Sequence record: OR539218.1 | DNA length: 64,000 nucleotides | Origin: Escherichia phage vB-Eco-KMB26 | Strand: one strand, 5' to 3' | Shown: positions 54,271-61,431 of the stretch, one piece after another | How positions within the stretch are numbered: the stretch's first letter is position 1 | How the letters are laid out: every line of letters starts with the position of its first letter | Program-made: the position numbers and the translations under genes | The notes under the pieces: model-generated | Told to the model about the DNA's origin: nothing | The model's input: the letters and a program-made list of their open reading frames with translations, nothing else | Databases searched by the model: none

Positions 54271-55235
54271 TGTATTCTTTAGAGGAATTTAATAATCAAG
54301 CAATAAACGCAGATTTCCAACGTAATAATATGTTCAGCTGTGTTTTTGCTACAACTCCATCAACTAAAAGCTCTTCGTTGATAAGTTCAATTAGCAACTT
54401 TTCTTATAATAACTTGGGCCTAAATTCAGATTGGTTAGGATTAACTCAAGGCGATATTAATCAGGGAATTACTACGCTAATTACAGCTGGCACACAAAAA
54501 CTGATAAGAAAATCAGGGGTTAGTAAATATCTTATTGGTGCCATGAGTCAACGTACAGTTCAAAGTTTATTAGGCTCATTTACAGTTGGTACATATTTAA
54601 TTGACTTCTTTAACATGGCATATAACTCATCTGGATTGATGATATACTCTGTAAAAATGCCAGAGAATAGATTATCCTATGAAACTGACTGGAACTATAA
54701 TTCTCCTAATATTCGTATAACTGGGAGAGAATTAGACCCTTTGGTTATTTCATTCAGAATGGATTCAGAAGCTTGTAACTATCGTGCAATGCAAGACTGG
54801 GTTAACGCTGTTCAAGACCCAGTAACTGGATTGCGTGCTTTGCCGCAAGATGTCGAGGCAGATATTCAGGTTAATCTTCATTCTCGCAATGGATTACCAC
54901 ATACTGCGGTGATGTTCACTGGATGCATTCCAGTGTCCGTAAGCGCTCCTGAGTTATCATATGATGGAGATAACCAAATAACTACATTTGATGTTACTTT
55001 TGCGTATAGAGTGATGCAGGCTGGAGCAGTTGATAGACAAGCTGCCCTTGAATGGCTTGAATCTGCTACTATAAATGGTATTCAAAGCGTTCTCGGAAAT
55101 AGTGGAGGTGTTACTGGACTATCTAATTCGCTTTCACGACTTAGTAGATTAGGGGGAACTGCAGGAAGCATTTCAAATATTAATACTATGACAGGAATTG
55201 TCAATTCGCAAAGTAAAATATTAGGAGCAATATAA
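54270..55235 (+). CDS. 54: gp54, baseplate tail-tube initiator
   Basis: 321-aa ORF; TAATG coupling to gene 48; T4 synteny. Confidence 0.93.
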   Translation: MYSLEEFNNQAINADFQRNNMFSCVFATTPSTKSSSLISSISNFSYNNLGLNSDWLGLTQGDINQGITTLITAGTQKLIRKSGVSKYLIGAMSQRTVQSLLGSFTVGTYLIDFFNMAYNSSGLMIYSVKMPENRLSYETDWNYNSPNIRITGRELDPLVISFRMDSEACNYRAMQDWVNAVQDPVTGLRALPQDVEADIQVNLHSRNGLPHTAVMFTGCIPVSVSAPELSYDGDNQITTFDVTFAYRVMQAGAVDRQAALEWLESATINGIQSVLGNSGGVTGLSNSLSRLSRLGGTAGSISNINTMTGIVNSQSKILGAI

Positions 55236-55239
55236 CAAT

Positions 55240-55266
55240 GGGGACCTTTCGGTCCCCATATTTTTA
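55240..55266 (+). terminator. Rho-independent terminator after gene 54
   Basis: Hairpin ggggacc-tttc-ggtcccc followed by atatttttattta. Confidence 0.65.
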
Positions 55267-55554
55267 TTTACGGAATGAAATGAAAGCAGAAACTGAAGCA
55301 ACTAAACTGTCTTCAATATAAACTTCAATTTTTACCGGAGCTTCTGACTCAAATTTACCTGTTACTACACCCTGAAAAATACTTTCAGTCTGTTCTGGCT
55401 TTGAAAAATTTTCAGAAGGAAAAATTCCGAACTTTTTATCTGTTCCAAAAATTTTAATAAATTCATCGTAAACTGCTTCATTAAAAGCGTTATCAGCAGG
55501 AATAACGCCTTCAACTACAAGTTCTTGACCTAAAAAGCGTAAAGAAGATTTCAT
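55264..55554 (-). CDS. Hypothetical protein (96 aa) downstream of the alt paralogs
   Basis: ORF with ATG start; own early promoter at 55586-55614. Confidence 0.6.
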   Translation of the reverse strand: MKSSLRFLGQELVVEGVIPADNAFNEAVYDEFIKIFGTDKKFGIFPSENFSKPEQTESIFQGVVTGKFESEAPVKIEVYIEDSLVASVSAFISFRK

Positions 55555-55585
55555 TTTGTGTTCCTCATGTTATGTCAGTAAGATT

Positions 55586-55614
55586 ACTATAACACAACAC
55601 GAGGGACTTGTAAA
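55586..55614 (-). promoter_or_regulatory. T4 early promoter immediately after the stop codon of alt paralog A
   Basis: Reverse strand TTTACA-N17-TATAGT (plus actata 55586-55591, tgtaaa 55609-55614). Confidence 0.5.
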
Positions 55615-57672
55615 CTACATTTTGAACTTTTTAGACATTCCGTTGATGTTAACCAAAGAAGCTAAGATTTGAGAAACTTCATTTTCCTCTTCTTTTGATT
55701 CTTCTACAAGGAATTGATTAAATCCAGCCATTGGACGAACTTCACCAGTTTCCATTAGATGGTCTCCATCATATACTGATTCTTCTAATTGTTCAGAAGG
55801 AGGAACGATTGTACCTTCGATTAGATACTTGTTATAAGCAGTTTCTTTCATAAAGTACGTACTTACTTTATTAATCTTCAGTAAAATTCCACGTGGTAGA
55901 ATAACTTCAGCTTCTGATGGAAATCCTGATAAATGACCTGGAACGATAACTTTGATTCGCTCAGCTCCTTTAATTACCATACCCACGCTAGTTTCAGCAT
56001 CTTCATTAGCATATGTAGAATGACTACCCATATGCATCAAATCTTCTGCATCAACGGAACCTTCTCCTTCGCCAGAAAATACTGCGCCAGAATCATCTAG
56101 AGCCATATAGTTTTTACCATGCTCACCGAAGATATTTGGTTTAAGCGATGTGGATACGAAGTTCTTGAAATAGAACATTTTGTTTTCAATGTTATGACGC
56201 AAAGTTTTAAAGGTAACTTCTTGTCCACGATAAAGCGTAGTTCCTGGAGGAAGAACTGAACCTTTAGCGAATGCAGAATCCAACGTCTCGATGTGCTTAA
56301 TAGCTCGTTCCATATATTCTTCACGGGTAGAATCTGGTTTACCCAAAAGGAACGAGTTCATTTCAACATATGAATCTGCACAATAATCTTCAATTACATC
56401 AGATTCAGCCTGAGTCAGTCCTTTTGGAGCTACTTCGGTGCTTGCGTATTCATATGCCTGGGCAGCAGATTCATTAATCAATTTATAAATGCCATTCATG
56501 ACAAATTGAATAATAGCTGTCTTTTCATCTGGTGTGGTTTTAGAACCTTTAACTAAATCATTAATAATTTTCTTAATAACATCAAAGCTATTAGAAATAT
56601 TAATGTCAGCAAGATCGCTTAAAATTTTATCAGTTTTATAATCAAAGAATTCTTTATTCTTTAAATATTCTTGAGAACCTTGATATGTTATATCGCTCTG
56701 CAACTTGATAGATGGATCACGTAAACGTGCATGGGCCAATGCAATATGATTTCGGAAGCTTTCTAGTTCATAATCGTTAGATTTAAAACGAGAAGCACTT
56801 CTCATACCACCGATAGCTCCTTTGCTGAAGTTTGAACCAATCTGGATAACGCCAGAGTTCATCGGACCTTCTGCTTTATATACCGGAACTTTAGATTCAA
56901 ACTCTTGATATTTCTTAGCAGCGAAGCTATCACCCTGAAGCGAAGCATCAACAGTAGAATATTGAGCTTGTGCTGCTAATCGACGACTAATTTTAGTTTT
57001 CTGAATAACAGCTTGGTCCGTGCGCTTATCATTTTCTAAAGCAATAGAAGCAGCAACAGCAACAGCTTTAGGAACAGCATTTCCTGTTTTAACGTCTACA
57101 TAAACATCACCGACCTTTGATTCAACTTTTGTGAATAACTCAGTTGAAATAGGAGGTACACCTGGAATGTCTTCTAAATTGGCATTTTTACGGTAAACCA
57201 TAATATATGCATATTTCTTATCATAGTCCCAGATTTCCTTTAAAAGAACATATCGACCTGCTCCTTTAGTACGTACTAAACGGTCAGCAATAACTTGCAT
57301 TTGACGAGCTGCGCCATTTGTTTTACTTTTTAGTACGCGGAATAGGCATGCGTCGATTTTATACTGTTTCATTGTTTGAAGAGCAGTATCAAAAACGGCA
57401 TTAATGACACCAATTGGATTTCCACCCAAGTTTTTAAGCTTAACTAATGATAGTTTCTCATTAACACCTATCATTACGATATGCATCATTTTATCGCCTG
57501 GCTTAACGTTTTTATTCGTATCACCACCAGAGGTATATGTACAAAATCTAAATCCAGGAAGCACGCTTTCTTCGCCGGCTTGAATAGCAAAAATTTGTGG
57601 TATTTTATGCTTAGGATTTAAGTTAACAACCGGCGCCGAAGCGCCGTCAAATAATTCTGTAATAAGTTCCAT
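55615..57672 (-). CDS. Alt-like ADP-ribosyltransferase, divergent paralog (A)
   Basis: 685-aa ORF; N-terminal ~200 aa colinear with the adjacent alt gene (both start MELITELFD); C-terminal ART motifs YRG .. FVSTSL .. EAEVILPRG. Confidence 0.85.
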   Translation of the reverse strand: MELITELFDGASAPVVNLNPKHKIPQIFAIQAGEESVLPGFRFCTYTSGGDTNKNVKPGDKMMHIVMIGVNEKLSLVKLKNLGGNPIGVINAVFDTALQTMKQYKIDACLFRVLKSKTNGAARQMQVIADRLVRTKGAGRYVLLKEIWDYDKKYAYIMVYRKNANLEDIPGVPPISTELFTKVESKVGDVYVDVKTGNAVPKAVAVAASIALENDKRTDQAVIQKTKISRRLAAQAQYSTVDASLQGDSFAAKKYQEFESKVPVYKAEGPMNSGVIQIGSNFSKGAIGGMRSASRFKSNDYELESFRNHIALAHARLRDPSIKLQSDITYQGSQEYLKNKEFFDYKTDKILSDLADINISNSFDVIKKIINDLVKGSKTTPDEKTAIIQFVMNGIYKLINESAAQAYEYASTEVAPKGLTQAESDVIEDYCADSYVEMNSFLLGKPDSTREEYMERAIKHIETLDSAFAKGSVLPPGTTLYRGQEVTFKTLRHNIENKMFYFKNFVSTSLKPNIFGEHGKNYMALDDSGAVFSGEGEGSVDAEDLMHMGSHSTYANEDAETSVGMVIKGAERIKVIVPGHLSGFPSEAEVILPRGILLKINKVSTYFMKETAYNKYLIEGTIVPPSEQLEESVYDGDHLMETGEVRPMAGFNQFLVEESKEEENEVSQILASLVNINGMSKKFKM

Positions 57673-57675
57673 GAT

Positions 57676-59733
57676 TTATCCTTGAACGAACTTGTAAGGC
57701 ATGTTTGCAATATCTATACAAGACGCAATAATTCCAAGAGATGATTCTACTTTCTGTTTAACGTTTGATGAAACAAATGATGCAAAGTCAACTCTGTCTT
57801 CTATTTCAATATCACCTGTCATTGCAACTACTTCGCCGGTTTCCATTAGACGGTCACCGTCATAAATTACCGATTCGGTGAGTTCTTCTGTGGTCATAAC
57901 TTCAGCTTGAATAAGCTTGTTGTTAGTTTTAACTGTTCCATCATTGTAAGATGCATCGGTTATTTTATTAACTTTGACCATTAATCCACGTGGCAAAATG
58001 ACTTCCATTTCATTTGAAGGTGCTAAACTTCCACCTGGTAAAACAACATTGACTTTATCAGCCCCAGTAATAACCCATCCAATTCCAACTAAATTATCGC
58101 TAGAATTTACTAGTCCTTCATCAGTTTTATCAATAGAAACACTTAAACGCTTTTCGTCTGGTAAAACACCCACAGATGAATCAGTCATCCAGGTACCAAA
58201 AATATTTGGATATAATGATGTTGACACAAAGTTTCTAAAATAAAAAACTCGATTTTTTACCAGTGCTTCATATATTGAAGGTAACATTCGTTGTGAACGA
58301 TACAAAGTAATACCTTTTGGTAATCGTTCACCATTTTTAAAGGCAGAATCTAAATTATCAATAGCTTTTTCTATATCAGATGCTGTCAAAATACTTGTAC
58401 GCTCATCTGGATTATATAATCCCAAAAGAGCGTTATTTATGTCTACATATCCTGAACTTACGTATTCACGAATTCCGCGTTTTTGTGCCGGTGTGTATTT
58501 AGATGAATCTTTATTTTCGACTATAGGATGTAGTGACCATCCAGCGGTAAGAGCATATCCACGCAATTCTCTTCGAATAATCTTTGTTTTTATTGCATTC
58601 CAAGAATTTTGTACTAACTCATTCGCAGCATCTTGATTTAAATGCGAATGCTTGTTAATGTTTCTTTCTAACCAAGCACCTTTATATTTTTCTAAAGTAT
58701 CATCAACTATAGAAGCAATAGTTTCTAAAGTTTTTATTGAAGTAATAGATTCTTTTCGTAATCTTTCTAAAGCTTTATTTTTTATTTCTGCATTAACATC
58801 AGATTCTTTATCTTCAGGAATTATAGAAGCTTCTCTGAATGCCATTCCAGCTGTAACACTACTAAGAGCATTCTCTAATGCAAATCCTGAAGTAGAAATA
58901 ACAGTTAATTCATTAGCGTCAGAAATTAAAGGAGCGTCAGCAGGTTTATTTAATTCTGCTGCTGAAGCCTCAAATTTTTGAAACATCGGCGTTTCAAATC
59001 TAGAAGATTCCAATGATTGACTTTGCGCAATTGCTCTACGGGAAATTTTAACTTTAACGATTACAGCTTGGTCAGAACGTTTATCATTTTCTTGCGCAAT
59101 AGATGCTGCAATTGCCTCATTTTTAGTTACTTGAGCTCCAGTATCTTTATTGATATAAACATCACCGACCTTCGATTCAACTTTAGTAAAGAGCTCAGTA
59201 CTAATTTCCGGAACTCCCGGAATGTCTTCTAGTGATACATTTTTGCGATGTATAAGAATATATGCATACTTTTTATCGTAATCCCAGAGTTCCTTAAGAA
59301 GGACGTATCTGCCACCTGAACGACTACGGATAAGTCTATCAGCAATAACTTGAATTTGTCGAGCTTGACCAGCGGTTTTAGACTTAAGAATACGAAGCAT
59401 ACAGGCATCAATTTTATACTGACGCATTGTTTGCATCGCAACAGTAAAAACTGAATTGATATAATTAATTGGGCTTGGACCAAGACCTTTTAATTTAGCA
59501 ATTGAACCTTTAGCAGTTAATGTAAAAGGAACAATATGCATCATTTTATCGCCCATCTTTAAATCGCGATTAGTATCACCTCCAGATGTATAGGTACATA
59601 AACGAAAGCCTGGTTGTTCAATTGCATCATCAACATGAACTGAAAAAATTTGCGGTATTTTCTTCTTTGGATTTAAGTTTGTAATCGGAAGAGTAGTATC
59701 TTCGTCAAATAATTCTGTAATAAGTTCCATCAT
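57676..59733 (-). CDS. alt: Alt, ADP-ribosyltransferase (head-packaged); likely T4 Alt orthologue
   Basis: 685-aa ORF; ART motifs LYRSQ .. FVSTSL .. EMEVILPRG; stop 3 nt before the start of paralog A; TATAAATA box upstream; second ATG at 59730 is an alternative start. Confidence 0.88.
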   Translation of the reverse strand: MMELITELFDEDTTLPITNLNPKKKIPQIFSVHVDDAIEQPGFRLCTYTSGGDTNRDLKMGDKMMHIVPFTLTAKGSIAKLKGLGPSPINYINSVFTVAMQTMRQYKIDACMLRILKSKTAGQARQIQVIADRLIRSRSGGRYVLLKELWDYDKKYAYILIHRKNVSLEDIPGVPEISTELFTKVESKVGDVYINKDTGAQVTKNEAIAASIAQENDKRSDQAVIVKVKISRRAIAQSQSLESSRFETPMFQKFEASAAELNKPADAPLISDANELTVISTSGFALENALSSVTAGMAFREASIIPEDKESDVNAEIKNKALERLRKESITSIKTLETIASIVDDTLEKYKGAWLERNINKHSHLNQDAANELVQNSWNAIKTKIIRRELRGYALTAGWSLHPIVENKDSSKYTPAQKRGIREYVSSGYVDINNALLGLYNPDERTSILTASDIEKAIDNLDSAFKNGERLPKGITLYRSQRMLPSIYEALVKNRVFYFRNFVSTSLYPNIFGTWMTDSSVGVLPDEKRLSVSIDKTDEGLVNSSDNLVGIGWVITGADKVNVVLPGGSLAPSNEMEVILPRGLMVKVNKITDASYNDGTVKTNNKLIQAEVMTTEELTESVIYDGDRLMETGEVVAMTGDIEIEDRVDFASFVSSNVKQKVESSLGIIASCIDIANMPYKFVQG

Positions 59734-59753
59734 AGCCTCTCTAGTGTTTATTC

Positions 59754-59761
59754 TATTTATA
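59754..59761 (-). promoter_or_regulatory. T4 late promoter box (reverse strand) upstream of alt
   Basis: Plus-strand tatttata 21 bp upstream of the ATG at 59733; hairpin aaggcc-cgaa-ggcctt just upstream. Confidence 0.5.
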
Positions 59762-59782
59762 AAATTAAAGGCCCGAAGGCCT

Positions 59783-59971
59783 TTAATAATCTAGTGGTAA
59801 GAGAGTACGGTATATTTCAAACTTTGGACCTTTTTCATAGGCATCAATTGTTTCTGTGAATTTATTATAAGCGTATGCATCTACAAATTCGAGAATGACT
59901 TGTGATACAGAAGTAGAAACATCTCCACCTTCTTTTTGAGCAATGACAATTGTTTCTAAGTAAGCTTTCAT
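59783..59971 (-). CDS. Small hypothetical protein (62 aa)
   Basis: ORF with ATG overlapping ligase stop (ATGA); no motif. Confidence 0.5.
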   Translation of the reverse strand: MKAYLETIVIAQKEGGDVSTSVSQVILEFVDAYAYNKFTETIDAYEKGPKFEIYRTLLPLDY

Positions 59972-61431
59972 AAACCAGTTACCTCATGAAAATCACCAAA
60001 TACATCCTCGAATGTATTAGCTTTAGTTTTATCTTCACGCAAACGAATCGCAATCGGAAGAAATAATTTAACGTAATCAGTGCGGCCATCAGATTTTAAC
60101 CAACCGTTGCATTCGCACTCTAGAATTTTTCCAATATAATAATTTTGGTTTTCCATAATGCGAGTACGGTCAAGTTCATGCGATTTTACACCGGCTTTAT
60201 CTTTTAAGCCTGAACCAGCATTTACTTTAATTTTTCCACACTCTGACTCAAGAATAAATCCACCTGCTTTAGTAGGGTCTTTACGGTGAGGATAAATTCC
60301 TACAATTTTTAAATCAACATCAATTACTTCTTTAAATTTATAGAGATTTTTTGAACGAGCATTTTCCCATAATCCATCGATATTTTTGAGAATAATACCT
60401 TCAAGACCTTGGTCAATATACTTTTTATAAATTACCTTGGCTTCGTCTAGGTTATTTACTACCTGGTTTTCAATTAAAATTACTTTATCATAGCCTGATG
60501 TCATTTGTTCTAGTTTAGAAAAACGTACATCATATTTCAAACGAAATGCAGGAAGACCGTATATTTCTACCAACGGTACATAATCCCAGACCTGAAACTT
60601 CATGCATTGTGCTTCTTTTTCAGAAATGGTTCCCTTTAAAGATTTATTGGCGATGCCATTAGATGCAGTACGTGATTCAGCTACTTCGGCGAATTCTTTA
60701 GCTTTACTGTTTTCAGGATAAGCATCAAAAAGAAAATCTAGGCCTTCTGGCTCCTTTTCAACTTGCTCATGGTATACCAATTCGCCATCAATTAACACGC
60801 CTTCTGGATGAATCTGGCGGGCTTCAGCGGTCATTTTGATTAATTCTTCCTTAAGAAGATCTAATCCTAGATATTCATTACCAGCTCGTGATAAAAGACG
60901 AACGTCATCTAATTCATCACCTCTGACTTCGGCAAAGCACCGAGCTCCATCAGCTTTTAACTGGGCAAAGGCTGGAAATTTGATATTCTTATTAATGCCT
61001 TTTTCATCATAAGAACTTGCGAGCATTTGAGGTTGTTCAGGAATTAAACCTGGCCAAACTTTGTTTGCAATAGATACTGAAGCACCACATTCAAGGTCTC
61101 GCATCATCACTCGACGCAAAACTTCAACATCATCTTTTTTACCGTCAGTAATATAACCTACTAATTCCTCAATTGCCGCATTTCCGGTCAATTTTCGAGT
61201 AGCTAATGTAAATTCAATGAAGTCAAGCATATCAGTAATAGTCAGCATTCCAAAACTCTGGGTAGCAATACCAGGTTTAGGCCATTTCTTGATATAATAC
61301 TGTAACCCACGAGAATAAGTCAGACGATATACTCGTTTAAGCAATTCATTATCTTTATTCTTTTCAAGAATTGCTTGCTTCTGCTTAGTTGAACCAATAG
61401 ATGCTATTTCGTTCAGAATTTTAAGAATCAT
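59968..61431 (-). CDS. 30: gp30, ATP-dependent DNA ligase
   Basis: 487-aa ORF; N-terminus MILKILNEIASIGSTKQKQAILEKNKDNELLKRVYRL..; adenylation lysine motif QLKADGARCF (KxDG). Confidence 0.95.
   Translation of the reverse strand: MILKILNEIASIGSTKQKQAILEKNKDNELLKRVYRLTYSRGLQYYIKKWPKPGIATQSFGMLTITDMLDFIEFTLATRKLTGNAAIEELVGYITDGKKDDVEVLRRVMMRDLECGASVSIANKVWPGLIPEQPQMLASSYDEKGINKNIKFPAFAQLKADGARCFAEVRGDELDDVRLLSRAGNEYLGLDLLKEELIKMTAEARQIHPEGVLIDGELVYHEQVEKEPEGLDFLFDAYPENSKAKEFAEVAESRTASNGIANKSLKGTISEKEAQCMKFQVWDYVPLVEIYGLPAFRLKYDVRFSKLEQMTSGYDKVILIENQVVNNLDEAKVIYKKYIDQGLEGIILKNIDGLWENARSKNLYKFKEVIDVDLKIVGIYPHRKDPTKAGGFILESECGKIKVNAGSGLKDKAGVKSHELDRTRIMENQNYYIGKILECECNGWLKSDGRTDYVKLFLPIAIRLREDKTKANTFEDVFGDFHEVTGL

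What the first reader, a model, noticed from the sequence alone, without database searches (positions are those of the whole stretch)
55615..59733. Two tandem Alt-type ADP-ribosyltransferase genes with conserved ends and divergent middles
Two adjacent 685-aa ORFs, 3 nt apart, both start MELITELFD, with the first ~9 codons identical at the nucleotide level. They share an N-terminal ~200-aa region and C-terminal ART catalytic motifs (R, STS, E-x-E), but their central ~250 aa differ substantially. Alt is packaged in the head and injected, so two paralogs with different central regions suggest two injected ARTs with different substrate specificities. I cannot tell from memory whether the T4 reference carries the same duplication.
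Basis: partly seen in the sequence, partly recalled or inferred. Interest (0 to 1): 0.5.

Follow-up and report, generated by a model that had tools for sequence, protein, structure and literature searches.

The report
Tandem Alt ADP-ribosyltransferase genes, T4-like phage
This T4-like phage carries two intact, adjacent genes for Alt-type ADP-ribosylating enzymes; about four in five of its relatives (including T2 and T6) do too, the pair is already annotated and remarked on in print, and reference phage T4 keeps only a deleted stump of the second gene.

Summary
Two minus-strand ORFs lie 3 nt apart: UP at 57676-59730/59733 and DN at 55615-57672. They are 41-46% identical overall (by aligner), about 67% in the first ~238 residues, 11-13% in the centre and about 35% in the ART domain. 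Both keep R / S-T-S / E-x-E.

UP is the ortholog of T4 Alt (98.4%). DN is the full-length form of T4 alt.-1/alt.-2. T4 lost 1,699 bp between two 9-bp repeats (CTAAAAAGT) and carries a 1-nt frameshift.

About 402 of roughly 500 Tequatrovirus records, including T2 and T6, hold intact DN; 91 hold the T4-type deletion. DN is under strong purifying selection (dN/dS 0.04-0.05). It keeps both motifs where T4 Alt is cut by the head protease, and appears co-transcribed and translationally coupled with UP.

The pair is already annotated in GenBank/RefSeq.

What I add: the N-terminal domain groups by phage genus, while the central and ART part groups by gene position across genera. That suggests a lineage-specific, presumed head-packaging module fused to exchangeable effector cassettes.

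Packaging of DN and its targets remain untested. Interest is low to moderate.

The parts
59767..59784 (-). G+C-rich hairpin AAAGGCC-TTCG-GGCCTTT followed by a T-rich stretch, overlapping the alt.1 stop codon. Terminator-like boundary upstream of the alt operon.
   Evidence: Read directly from the sequence. Identical in T4, T2 and T6. The consensus terminator scan did not list it.
59754..59761 (-). T4-type late promoter box TATAAATA, 20-23 nt upstream of the UP start. It is the only such box in 55100-60100.
   Evidence: 24 matches in the window against 9.3 expected. This is the only one between gene 54 and gene 30. Conserved in T4, T2 and T6.
57676..59733 (-). UP, the ortholog of T4 alt. The ORF runs from the first ATG at 59733; the probable start is the second ATG at 59730 (MELITE..., 684 aa). 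Stop codon TAA at 57676-57678.
   Evidence: 98.4% aa identity to T4 Alt NP_049811. dN/dS 0.056 against T4. PF03496 at 120.9 bits. Full-length match to phrog_802.
59017..59730 (-). UP N-terminal module (aa 1-238): propeptide MELITE with the gp21 site ITE-6, plus an alpha/beta domain. 100% identical in aa to T2/T6 Alt, 67% to DN.
   Evidence: The T4 cleavage site is from PMC5694885.
57931..59016 (-). UP variable effector cassette (about aa 239-600): helical region plus ART core. Contains R478 (58297-58299), S503-T-S505 (58216-58224) and E574-M-E576 (58003-58011). Replaced by a 18-31%-identical (central region) cassette in T2/T6.
57868..57888 (-). UP residues EELTESV, containing LTE-619. This is the C-terminal gp21 cleavage site mapped by mass spectrometry in T4 Alt.
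   Evidence: PMC5694885.
57679..57683 (-). Shine-Dalgarno AAGGA for DN, formed by the last sense codons of UP (CAA GGA TAA). A 3-nt spacer (57673-57675) separates the UP stop from the DN ATG. This is a translational-coupling layout.
   Evidence: The same layout occurs in T2, T6 and Dhakavirus (CAAGGGTAAATGATG).
55615..57672 (-). DN, the second Alt-type ART (685 aa). It is the full-length counterpart of T4 alt.-1 plus alt.-2.
   Evidence: At least 95% identity in 396 phage records. dN/dS 0.04-0.05 against T2/T6. phrog_802 full length; phrog_23015 and phrog_15247, which I equate with the T4 alt.-1 and alt.-2 ORFs from their lengths (61 and 67 positions) and the residues matched (1-56, 62-117), match DN residues 1-56 and 62-117.
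56959..57672 (-). DN N-terminal module (aa 1-238): MELITE propeptide plus an alpha/beta domain (model residues 12-195) and linking helices.
56428..56958 (-). DN central all-helical region (aa 239-415). 11-13% identical to UP but 44% identical to the positional ortholog in Dhakavirus JS98.
55798..56427 (-). DN ART domain (aa 416-625). Contains R482 (56227-56229), S507-T-S509 (56146-56154) and E587-A-E589 (55906-55914).
55774..55794 (-). DN residues EQLEESV. LEE-631 aligns with T4 Alt LTE-619, so this is a candidate C-terminal gp21 cleavage site. It lies in the disordered segment 629-663 of the model.
57325..57333 (-). First copy of the 9-bp direct repeat CTAAAAAGT: left end-point of the 1,699-bp deletion that made T4 alt.-2.
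55626..55634 (-). Second copy of CTAAAAAGT: right end-point of the T4 deletion, 9 nt before the DN stop codon.
55586..55614 (-). T4-early-type promoter (G)TTTACA-N17-TATAGT immediately after the DN stop. It probably drives alt.-3 separately, so it marks the 3' boundary of the late alt operon.
   Evidence: 10 of 12 matches, TG extension.

Best explanation
The locus is a two-gene late operon encoding two anciently diverged, functional Alt-family mono-ADP-ribosyltransferases of the R-S-ExE class.

UP is the ortholog of T4 Alt, which modifies RNA polymerase alpha. DN is a second enzyme that most Tequatrovirus phages, including T2 and T6, retain. T4 and about 18% of records lost it through a microhomology-mediated 1.7-kb deletion.

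Each protein appears built from four parts:
1. A 6-residue propeptide, MELITE.
2. An N-terminal module of about 230 aa, specific to the phage lineage and kept similar between the two paralogs of one genome. I infer it directs incorporation into the prohead core.
3. An exchangeable effector cassette: a helical region plus the ART core.
4. A C-terminal tail with a second protease site.

Inferred mechanism:
- Both genes are transcribed late from the single TATAAATA promoter.
- DN is translated by coupling to UP.
- Both proteins are built into the prohead and trimmed by gp21 at ITE-6 and at LTE-619 (UP) or LEE-631 (DN).
- Both are injected with the DNA and use NAD+ to ADP-ribosylate arginines on different sets of host proteins. 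The difference is expected because the helical region, the ART surface and the segment before ExE differ.

Shown here:
- Gene integrity and catalytic residues.
- ART fold of DN (on a predicted model).
- Purifying selection and orthology.
- Origin of the T4 relic and population frequency.
- Discordant histories of the two protein parts.

Inferred only:
- Co-transcription and translational coupling.
- Packaging and processing of DN.
- Arginine specificity and distinct targets.
For: ORFs and spacing.

Family and motifs:
- PF03496 for both.
- phrog_802 over the full length for both.
- R, STS and ExE invariant across 25 homologs and present in 115 of 120 database homologs.
- The R and ExE positions align to the catalytic R and Q/E-x-E of solved C3-like and BECa toxins.

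Selection: dN/dS is 0.039-0.052 for DN between this phage, T2 and T6, and 0.056 for UP against T4.

Distribution:
- DN at 80% identity or more in 402 records.
- T4-type deletion junction in 91 of 497 records.
- T2 and T6 carry both genes.

Origin of the T4 relic.

Expression layout: one late promoter box and a coupling layout conserved across genera.

Protease motifs: using the T4 sites reported in PMC5694885.

Ancient duplication and modularity (NJ trees):
- The DN clade spanning Tequatrovirus and Dhakavirus has 100% bootstrap in both the central and the ART regions.
- The UP clade has 91% (central) and 100% (ART).
- In the N-domain, Tequatrovirus UP and DN form one clade at 100%.

Tandem pairs at the same locus also occur in Dhakavirus, Gaprivervirus and Biquartavirus.
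Against: - I found no virion proteomics or biochemistry for DN in the searchable literature. Packaging, processing, activity and targets are unproven.
- DN has no late promoter of its own, so its expression rests on read-through from UP.
- The aligned C-terminal motif in DN is LEE, not LTE. Whether gp21 cuts it is unknown.
- That 18% of records, including T4, have lost DN shows it is dispensable on at least some hosts.
- Database homologs truncated at the N-terminus exist (P0007, P0008, P0010). DN may be decaying in several lineages.
- The structural model is of moderate confidence, and the segments 517-540 and 629-663 are unresolved.
Confidence: 0.7

Rival explanations
1. DN is a redundant or decaying duplicate on its way to the state seen in T4. 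It adds nothing functionally distinct.
For: T4 and 91 of 497 records have deleted it. N-terminally truncated or frameshifted versions are present in databases. Alt itself is non-essential in T4 (PMC9026906).
Against: DN is intact in about 402 records. dN/dS is 0.04-0.05 with 45-52 synonymous against 8-9 non-synonymous changes. Catalytic residues are invariant. A positional ortholog is retained in Dhakavirus at 44-59% identity. Only 35% ART identity and 11-13% central identity to UP argue against simple redundancy.
Confidence: 0.1
2. DN is an active ART but is not packaged. It acts inside the producing cell late in infection, for example on host or phage proteins, like ModA/ModB acting from within.
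For: There is no direct evidence of DN in virions. Its gene has no promoter of its own. The C-terminal motif differs from T4 Alt (LEE against LTE).
Against: The first 9 residues, including the ITE-6 cleavage site, are identical to Alt. The N-domain is 67% identical to UP, far more conserved than the catalytic part. The region around the C-terminal cleavage site and the YDGDxLMETGEV block are conserved. A late-only operon with the packaged Alt fits a virion component.
Confidence: 0.15
3. The two ORFs are an assembly or collapse artefact of a single alt gene.
For: None beyond the shared 27-nt start and equal ORF length.
Against: 41-46% aa identity with high synonymous divergence throughout. The identical arrangement is found in hundreds of independently sequenced genomes, including T2 and T6.
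Confidence: 0.01

Closest known systems
Bacteriophage T4 Alt (gpAlt, NP_049811): head-packaged, injected mono-ADP-ribosyltransferase that modifies Arg265 of RNA polymerase alpha and other host proteins
   Same: UP is its ortholog: 98.4% identity, same position between alt.1/gene 30 and alt.-3/gene 54, same promoter and hairpin upstream, and the same ITE-6 and LTE-619 sites. DN shares the whole architecture, the propeptide, the N-domain (67%), the R-S-ExE residues and the C-terminal conserved block.
   Different: DN is only 44% identical overall. Its helical centre is unrelated at the sequence level (11-13%) and its ART domain is 35% identical. No experiment on T4 can have addressed DN, because T4 lacks it.
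T4 alt.-1 / alt.-2 (NP_049810, NP_049809), annotated as an old duplication of the first part of alt
   Same: They are the same gene as DN. The DNA is 97% identical over the first 356 nt and 97.5% over the 80 nt that span the last ~25 nt of DN and the sequence downstream of it.
   Different: Here the gene is whole. The T4 state is derived: a 1,699-bp deletion between two CTAAAAAGT repeats plus a 1-nt loss in an A-run. It is not a partial duplication.
Tandem alt pairs in other Straboviridae: T2 and T6 (second gene annotated as hypothetical), RB14 'alt.-2', SHFML-11 / 6phi13 (PMC13600099), Dhakavirus JS98 and IME281, Gaprivervirus SP18 alta/altb, Aeromonas 44RR ORF187c (PMC1524935)
   Same: Same locus, same order, and the same 0-3 nt junction in Tequatrovirus and Dhakavirus. 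The DN proteins of T2 and T6 are 98.7-98.8% identical to this one.
   Different: The upstream gene here is the T4-type allele, whereas T2 and T6 carry a different cassette (73% overall, 18-31% in the centre). This phage therefore combines a T4-type Alt with an intact DN.
C3-like / VIP2 / iota / Vis arginine- or Rho-specific bacterial ART toxins (PF03496, R-S-E clade)
   Same: Catalytic fold and R, STS, ExE motifs.
   Different: The Alt proteins carry a ~415-aa phage-specific N-terminal extension and a cleavable tail. They are delivered by a virion, not by a binary toxin B component or secretion.
Polymorphic toxin systems and phage polyvalent / MuF-fused head proteins (Aravind group; PMC3482391, PMC5512222, PMC9503650)
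   Same: A conserved delivery module is fused to variable, exchangeable enzymatic heads. The cassette type is shared across genera while the delivery module follows the lineage.
   Different: No immunity gene was identified next to the ARTs. No MuF domain was detected. The variable part is internal, flanked on both sides by conserved sequence. This is an analogy only.

Membership tests
PF03496 ADPrib_exo_Tox (Alt/VIP2 family, R-S-E clade ARTs) | Profile match above the curated gathering score | tested here: met
   UP 120.9 bits and DN 72.3 bits against a cut-off of 23.4.
PF03496 ADPrib_exo_Tox (Alt/VIP2 family, R-S-E clade ARTs) | Catalytic triad of motifs: Arg (YR), Ser-Thr-Ser, Glu-x-Glu | tested here: met
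   UP R478 / S503-T-S505 / E574-x-E576. DN R482 / S507-T-S509 / E587-x-E589. Invariant in A1. R and ExE align with the catalytic residues of 4xsg_B and 5h03_A.
PF03496 ADPrib_exo_Tox (Alt/VIP2 family, R-S-E clade ARTs) | ART fold | tested here: met
PF03496 ADPrib_exo_Tox (Alt/VIP2 family, R-S-E clade ARTs) | NAD+-dependent ADP-ribosyl transfer to a protein acceptor | not testable with these tools
   Needs enzyme assays.
T4 Alt-like head-packaged injected ART (phrog_802) | Full-length similarity to Alt, including the non-catalytic N-terminal 400 aa | tested here: met
   phrog_802 matches residues 1-685 of DN (E = 4e-256) and 1-683 of UP (E = 6e-262).
T4 Alt-like head-packaged injected ART (phrog_802) | Conserved genomic position between gene 30/alt.1 and alt.-3/gene 54 | tested here: met
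   The region is colinear with T4 apart from the 1.7-kb indel.
T4 Alt-like head-packaged injected ART (phrog_802) | gp21 prohead-protease cleavage motifs at both ends (ITE-6 and LTE-619 in T4) | tested here: met
   The motifs are present by sequence in both: ITE-6 is identical, UP has LTE-619 and DN has the aligned LEE-631. Actual cleavage was not tested.
T4 Alt-like head-packaged injected ART (phrog_802) | Late transcription | tested here: inconclusive
   TATAAATA lies 20-23 nt upstream of UP. None lies before DN, so co-transcription is inferred from the 3-nt spacing and the absence of a terminator.
T4 Alt-like head-packaged injected ART (phrog_802) | Physical presence in the virion and injection into the host | not testable with these tools
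   No proteomic data for DN were found in the literature searches.
Polymorphic-toxin-like modular effector locus (considered as an analogy) | Conserved delivery module plus variable toxin module with discordant phylogenies | tested here: met
   The N-domain clusters by genus (100% bootstrap for Tequatrovirus UP plus DN). Central and ART regions cluster by type across genera (91-100%). IME281 UP has a T2-type ART at 95% aa although the N-domains are 48% identical.
Polymorphic-toxin-like modular effector locus (considered as an analogy) | Cognate immunity gene immediately downstream of each toxin module | not tested
   The flanking small genes alt.1 (PF24647) and alt.-3 (DUF5498) were not examined for an immunity role. 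There is no gene between UP and DN. I do not file the locus in this family.

The most novel reading that the evidence does not exclude
The alt locus of T-even-type phages is a polymorphic injected-effector locus. A lineage-specific N-terminal head-incorporation module is kept alike between tandem paralogs by gene conversion or co-adaptation to the phage's own prohead core. It carries interchangeable helical-plus-ART cassettes. At least two ancient cassette families sit at the two gene positions, with further cassette types at the upstream one, and cassette types are shared across genera. DN would then be a second injected enzyme with host targets different from RNA polymerase alpha, possibly a host defence factor. 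It has escaped study only because the model phage T4 deleted it.
Probability: 0.45. Interest if true: 0.5.

Novelty: already known. Interest (0 to 1): 0.3.

Why it matters
Everything known about Alt biochemistry comes from T4, which turns out to be in the minority (about 18% of records) that has deleted the second enzyme. T2, T6 and about 80% of sequenced Tequatrovirus phages probably inject two different ADP-ribosyltransferases. The set of host proteins modified in the first seconds of infection may therefore be wider than the T4 model suggests, with possible effects on host range and on countering bacterial defences.

The point is easy to test, because T2 and T6 are standard laboratory phages. 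The modular architecture of packaging module plus exchangeable cassette may also be useful for engineering protein delivery by phage heads.

As a discovery, however, the tandem pair is already annotated and has been remarked on in print. The gain here is clarification rather than novelty.

Tried and rejected
- Sequence search of DN against PDB chains found nothing at E of 0.01 or below. A profile of 25 homologs was needed to reach C3-like and BECa toxins.
- The local Pfam copy gave no family for the N-domain. Precomputed hits list PF26846 on full-length homologs, but I could not read what that family is.
- Literature searches for virion proteomics or biochemistry of the second Alt found nothing. 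Koch et al. 1995 (PMC6134386) is not held. PMC12373910 deals with Ip proteins, not Alt.
- My first attempt to count T4-type deletions with a 427-nt query did not discriminate between the two states. A 126-nt junction query did.
- I tested the idea that the identical 27-nt start reflects recent gene conversion of the whole N-domain. I rejected it because synonymous divergence is high across the N-domain (pS 0.5-0.7).
- An assembly artefact and a catalytically dead paralog are both rejected (see rival explanations).


Full report
**1. What is in the sequence**

The window is a Tequatrovirus (T4-like) genome segment. The query region 55200-60000 is 99.7% identical to Escherichia phage Pinarejo and Yersinia phage PYPS2T. 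It is colinear with T4 genes 29-48-54 / alt.-3 / alt / alt.1 / 30.

Two ORFs on the minus strand occupy 57676..59733 (UP) and 55615..57672 (DN), 3 nt apart. UP begins ATGATG. T4, T2 and T6 have the same sequence and their records annotate the second ATG. The likely product is therefore 684 aa, starting MELITE at 59730.

The first 27 nt of the two genes are identical.

Identity between the two proteins:

| Region (DN numbering) | Identity |
|---|---|
| Overall | 41% by BLASTP; 43-46% in MAFFT alignments |
| Residues 12-238 | 67% |
| Residues 239-415 | 11-13% |
| ART domain 416-625 | 35-36% |
| C-terminal tail | 42% |

Synonymous differences are high along the whole length (pS 0.43-0.84). This is an old duplication and not an assembly artefact.

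**2. Both are bona fide Alt-family ARTs**

- Both proteins exceed the PF03496 gathering score.
- Both match phrog_802, "Alt-like RNA polymerase ADP-ribosyltransferase", over their full length.
- The motifs are R478 / S503-T-S505 / E574-M-E576 in UP and R482 / S507-T-S509 / E587-A-E589 in DN.
- These columns are invariant in an alignment of 25 diverse homologs. All three motifs are present in 115 of 120 database homologs.
- A profile of that alignment aligns the Arg and the ExE to the catalytic Arg and Q/E-x-E of solved C3-like and BECa toxins.

An AlphaFold2 model of DN has pLDDT 74.8 and pTM 0.67. It shows:
- a disordered propeptide;
- an alpha/beta N-domain (residues 12-195);
- a long all-helical region (about 200-470);
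- an ART beta-core (480-622);
- a disordered stretch (629-663);
- a terminal helix.

**3.

UP is 98.4% identical to T4 Alt.

T4 has no intact second gene. Its alt.-1 and alt.-2 ORFs translate to the first ~115 residues of DN almost exactly.

At the DNA level, T4 matches DN over the first 356 nt (97%) and again from 25 nt before the DN stop onward (97.5%). The two matches overlap by the 9-nt sequence CTAAAAAGT. In this window that sequence is present twice, at 57325-57333 and 55626-55634.

T4 therefore lost 1,699 bp by recombination or slippage between 9-bp direct repeats. It also lost one A from an A-run, which creates the alt.-1/alt.-2 split. The T4 annotation ("an old duplication of the first part of gene alt") describes the relic. 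The full gene shows the T4 state is derived.

**4. How common it is**

- tblastn finds DN at 80% identity or more in 402 phage records: 168 at 99% or above, 228 at 95-99%, 5 at 90-95% and 1 at 80-90%.
- A 126-nt query across the T4 junction is covered contiguously in 91 of 497 records.
- About four in five sequenced Tequatrovirus genomes therefore have the intact pair. These include T2 (AP018813) and T6 (MH550421), whose second gene is exactly 2,058 bp.

DN is essentially monomorphic. The upstream locus is dimorphic:
- T4-type at 90% or more in 174 records.
- A T2/T6-type at about 71% identity in about 320 records.

The two upstream alleles are 100% identical in aa over residues 1-238 and about 95-100% over the last ~85. 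Between them they differ sharply: 18-31% identity in the centre, with high synonymous divergence.

**5. Both genes are maintained by selection**

dN/dS is 0.039-0.052 for DN between this phage, T2 and T6, from 45-52 synonymous against 8-9 non-synonymous differences. It is 0.056 for UP against T4. This rules out a decaying pseudogene in this genome.

N-terminally truncated DN homologs do exist in the databases. One is a 624-aa form that starts exactly where T4 alt.-2 starts. DN is therefore being lost repeatedly in some lineages.

**6. Expression and delivery signals**

The only T4-type late promoter box (TATAAATA) between gene 54 and gene 30 lies at 59754-59761, 20-23 nt before UP. It sits just after a G+C hairpin that overlaps the alt.1 stop.

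The scans found no promoter box between UP and DN, and no terminator-like site at their junction on the coding strand; the two hairpins found inside UP (57867-57881, 59206-59222) are on the opposite strand. The last sense codons of UP (CAA GGA) provide the Shine-Dalgarno sequence for DN. The same layout is conserved in Dhakavirus. I infer a bicistronic late transcript with translational coupling.

Directly after the DN stop there is a T4-early-type promoter, GTTTACA-N17-TATAGT, in front of alt.-3.

From the literature:
- T4 Alt is a prohead-core component of about 40 copies (PMC9026906).
- It is cut by gp21 at ITE-6 and LTE-619, giving a 68.2-kDa mature protein (PMC5694885).

UP has both sites. 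DN has an identical MELITE start and an aligned LEE-631, followed by the conserved block SV(I)YDGDxLMETGEV. This lies in a segment the model predicts to be disordered. That is good circumstantial evidence, not proof, that DN is packaged and processed like Alt.

**7.

Tandem alt pairs occupy the same locus in:
- Dhakavirus (JS98, IME281);
- Gaprivervirus (SP18, annotated alta/altb);
- Biquartavirus (Aeromonas phage avDM1).

Neighbour-joining trees with 200 bootstraps, made separately for three regions, disagree with each other.

Central region and ART domain: genes group by position.
- DN of this phage and T2 groups with DN of JS98 and IME281 at 100% in both regions.
- The UP genes group together at 91% (central) and 100% (ART).
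- The duplication therefore predates the split between Tequatrovirus and Dhakavirus.

N-domain: genes group by genus.
- Tequatrovirus UP plus DN form one clade at 100%.
- Dhakavirus UP plus DN cluster with SP18 UP at 94%.
- The raw identities agree. UP against DN is 67% within this genome, against 46-47% to the respective Dhakavirus orthologs.

In addition, IME281 UP carries a T2-type cassette. The ART is 95% identical in aa and nt 681-1937 are 80% identical, although the N-domains are only 48% identical and not alignable by blastn.

The break in paralog similarity, the break between the T4-type and T2-type alleles, and the domain boundary in the model all fall near residue 238.

The simplest reading is a lineage-specific N-terminal module. 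It is homogenised between paralogs, or co-adapted to the phage's own head core, and it is fused to exchangeable effector cassettes. Homogenisation is not recent, because pS in the N-domain is 0.5-0.7.

**8. Mechanism proposed**

Both enzymes are made late and built into the prohead through the shared N-terminal module and propeptide. They are trimmed by gp21, injected with the DNA, and ADP-ribosylate arginines on host proteins. Arginine specificity is inferred from the ExE motif, by analogy with arginine-specific R-S-E ARTs; this is established family knowledge and was not tested here.

Different substrates are expected for three reasons:
- The helical region preceding the ART core is unrelated between the paralogs.
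- The segment between STS and ExE differs in length and sequence.
- The residues just before ExE differ (LAPSNEME in UP, SGFPSEAE in DN).

This remains inference.

**9. Comparison with what is known, and novelty**

- The pair is annotated as two "Alt-like RNA polymerase ADP-ribosyltransferase" genes in many GenBank and RefSeq records.
- The T6 record notes an "apparent insertion in alt.-2; also similar to alt".
- RB14 calls the gene alt.-2.
- Nolan et al. 2006 (PMC1524935) list alt paralogs in T4-like phages, including a full-length one in 44RR.
- A 2026 paper (PMC13600099) describes two paralogous Alt-like proteins of 43% identity in 6phi13 and SHFML-11. SHFML-11 is 98.7% identical to this region over 4.8 kb. 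The paper offers the same "expanded target range" interpretation.

The finding as stated is therefore already known. My searches turned up no description of three things:
- the deletion mechanism that produced T4 alt.-1/alt.-2;
- the frequency estimate;
- the discordant histories of the N-domain and the cassette.

The function of DN is experimentally untouched as far as I could find.

**10. Verdict**

This is a real and correctly described feature, a textbook gene family in an arrangement that is the norm among T4's relatives. Interest is 0.3. It is useful mainly as a reminder that T4 is atypical at this locus and that a second, probably injected ART awaits characterisation in T2 and T6.

Noticed in passing
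window 55264-55554 (-) and 55586-55614 (-): An alt.-3 homolog (DUF5498, 96 aa) lies just downstream of DN, behind its own T4-early-type promoter GTTTACA-N17-TATAGT. In T4, C-terminal extensions of Alt.-3 let the phage escape the CmdTAC defence system (PMC11618068). An early gene therefore sits directly after a late operon on the same strand.
   Followed up: partly
window 55238-55259 (both strands): A 9-bp-stem G+C hairpin with T-runs on both sides lies between the convergent gene 54 and alt.-3. It looks like a bidirectional terminator.
   Followed up: no
database proteins P0007, P0008, P0010: These are N-terminally truncated versions of DN at 97-99% identity: 624 aa, 528 aa and 415 aa, with 36, 7 and 12 member sequences. 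The 624-aa form starts exactly at the T4 alt.-2 start (MMHIVMIG). They look like frameshifted alleles, intermediate between the intact gene and the T4 relic.
   Followed up: partly
L006 4001-6085 (IME281, Dhakavirus) compared with L003 9798-11891 (T2): The upstream Alt of Dhakavirus IME281 carries a T2-type effector cassette (nt 681-1937 80% identical, ART 95% aa). Its N-domain is Dhakavirus-like: 97% to JS98 and 48% to T2. The cassette type crosses genus boundaries.
   Followed up: yes
window 57645-57675 and 59703-59733: The 27-nt identical 5' end of the two genes (ATGGAACTTATTACAGAATTATTTGAC) is the longest identical run between them, although synonymous sites elsewhere have diverged heavily. 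Chance is about 0.007. The cause is unresolved: nucleotide-level constraint on the start region, or a short conversion tract.
   Followed up: partly
window 59783-59971 (-): alt.1 matches Pfam PF24647 'Phage blade protein' (E = 4e-29) and overlaps the ligase gene stop. Its function was not examined.
   Followed up: no
precomputed Pfam column: A Pfam family PF26846 is recorded on all full-length Alt homologs. It is absent from P0008, which starts at residue 158, so it probably models the Alt N-terminal domain. It is not in the local Pfam copy, so its name and description could not be checked.
   Followed up: no
L005 2392-3216 (phage Phi1, Krischvirus): In Phi1 the gene after alt is a short (274 aa) stand-alone ADP-ribosyltransferase rather than a full-length paralog. 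This may be another outcome of the same tandem arrangement.
   Followed up: no
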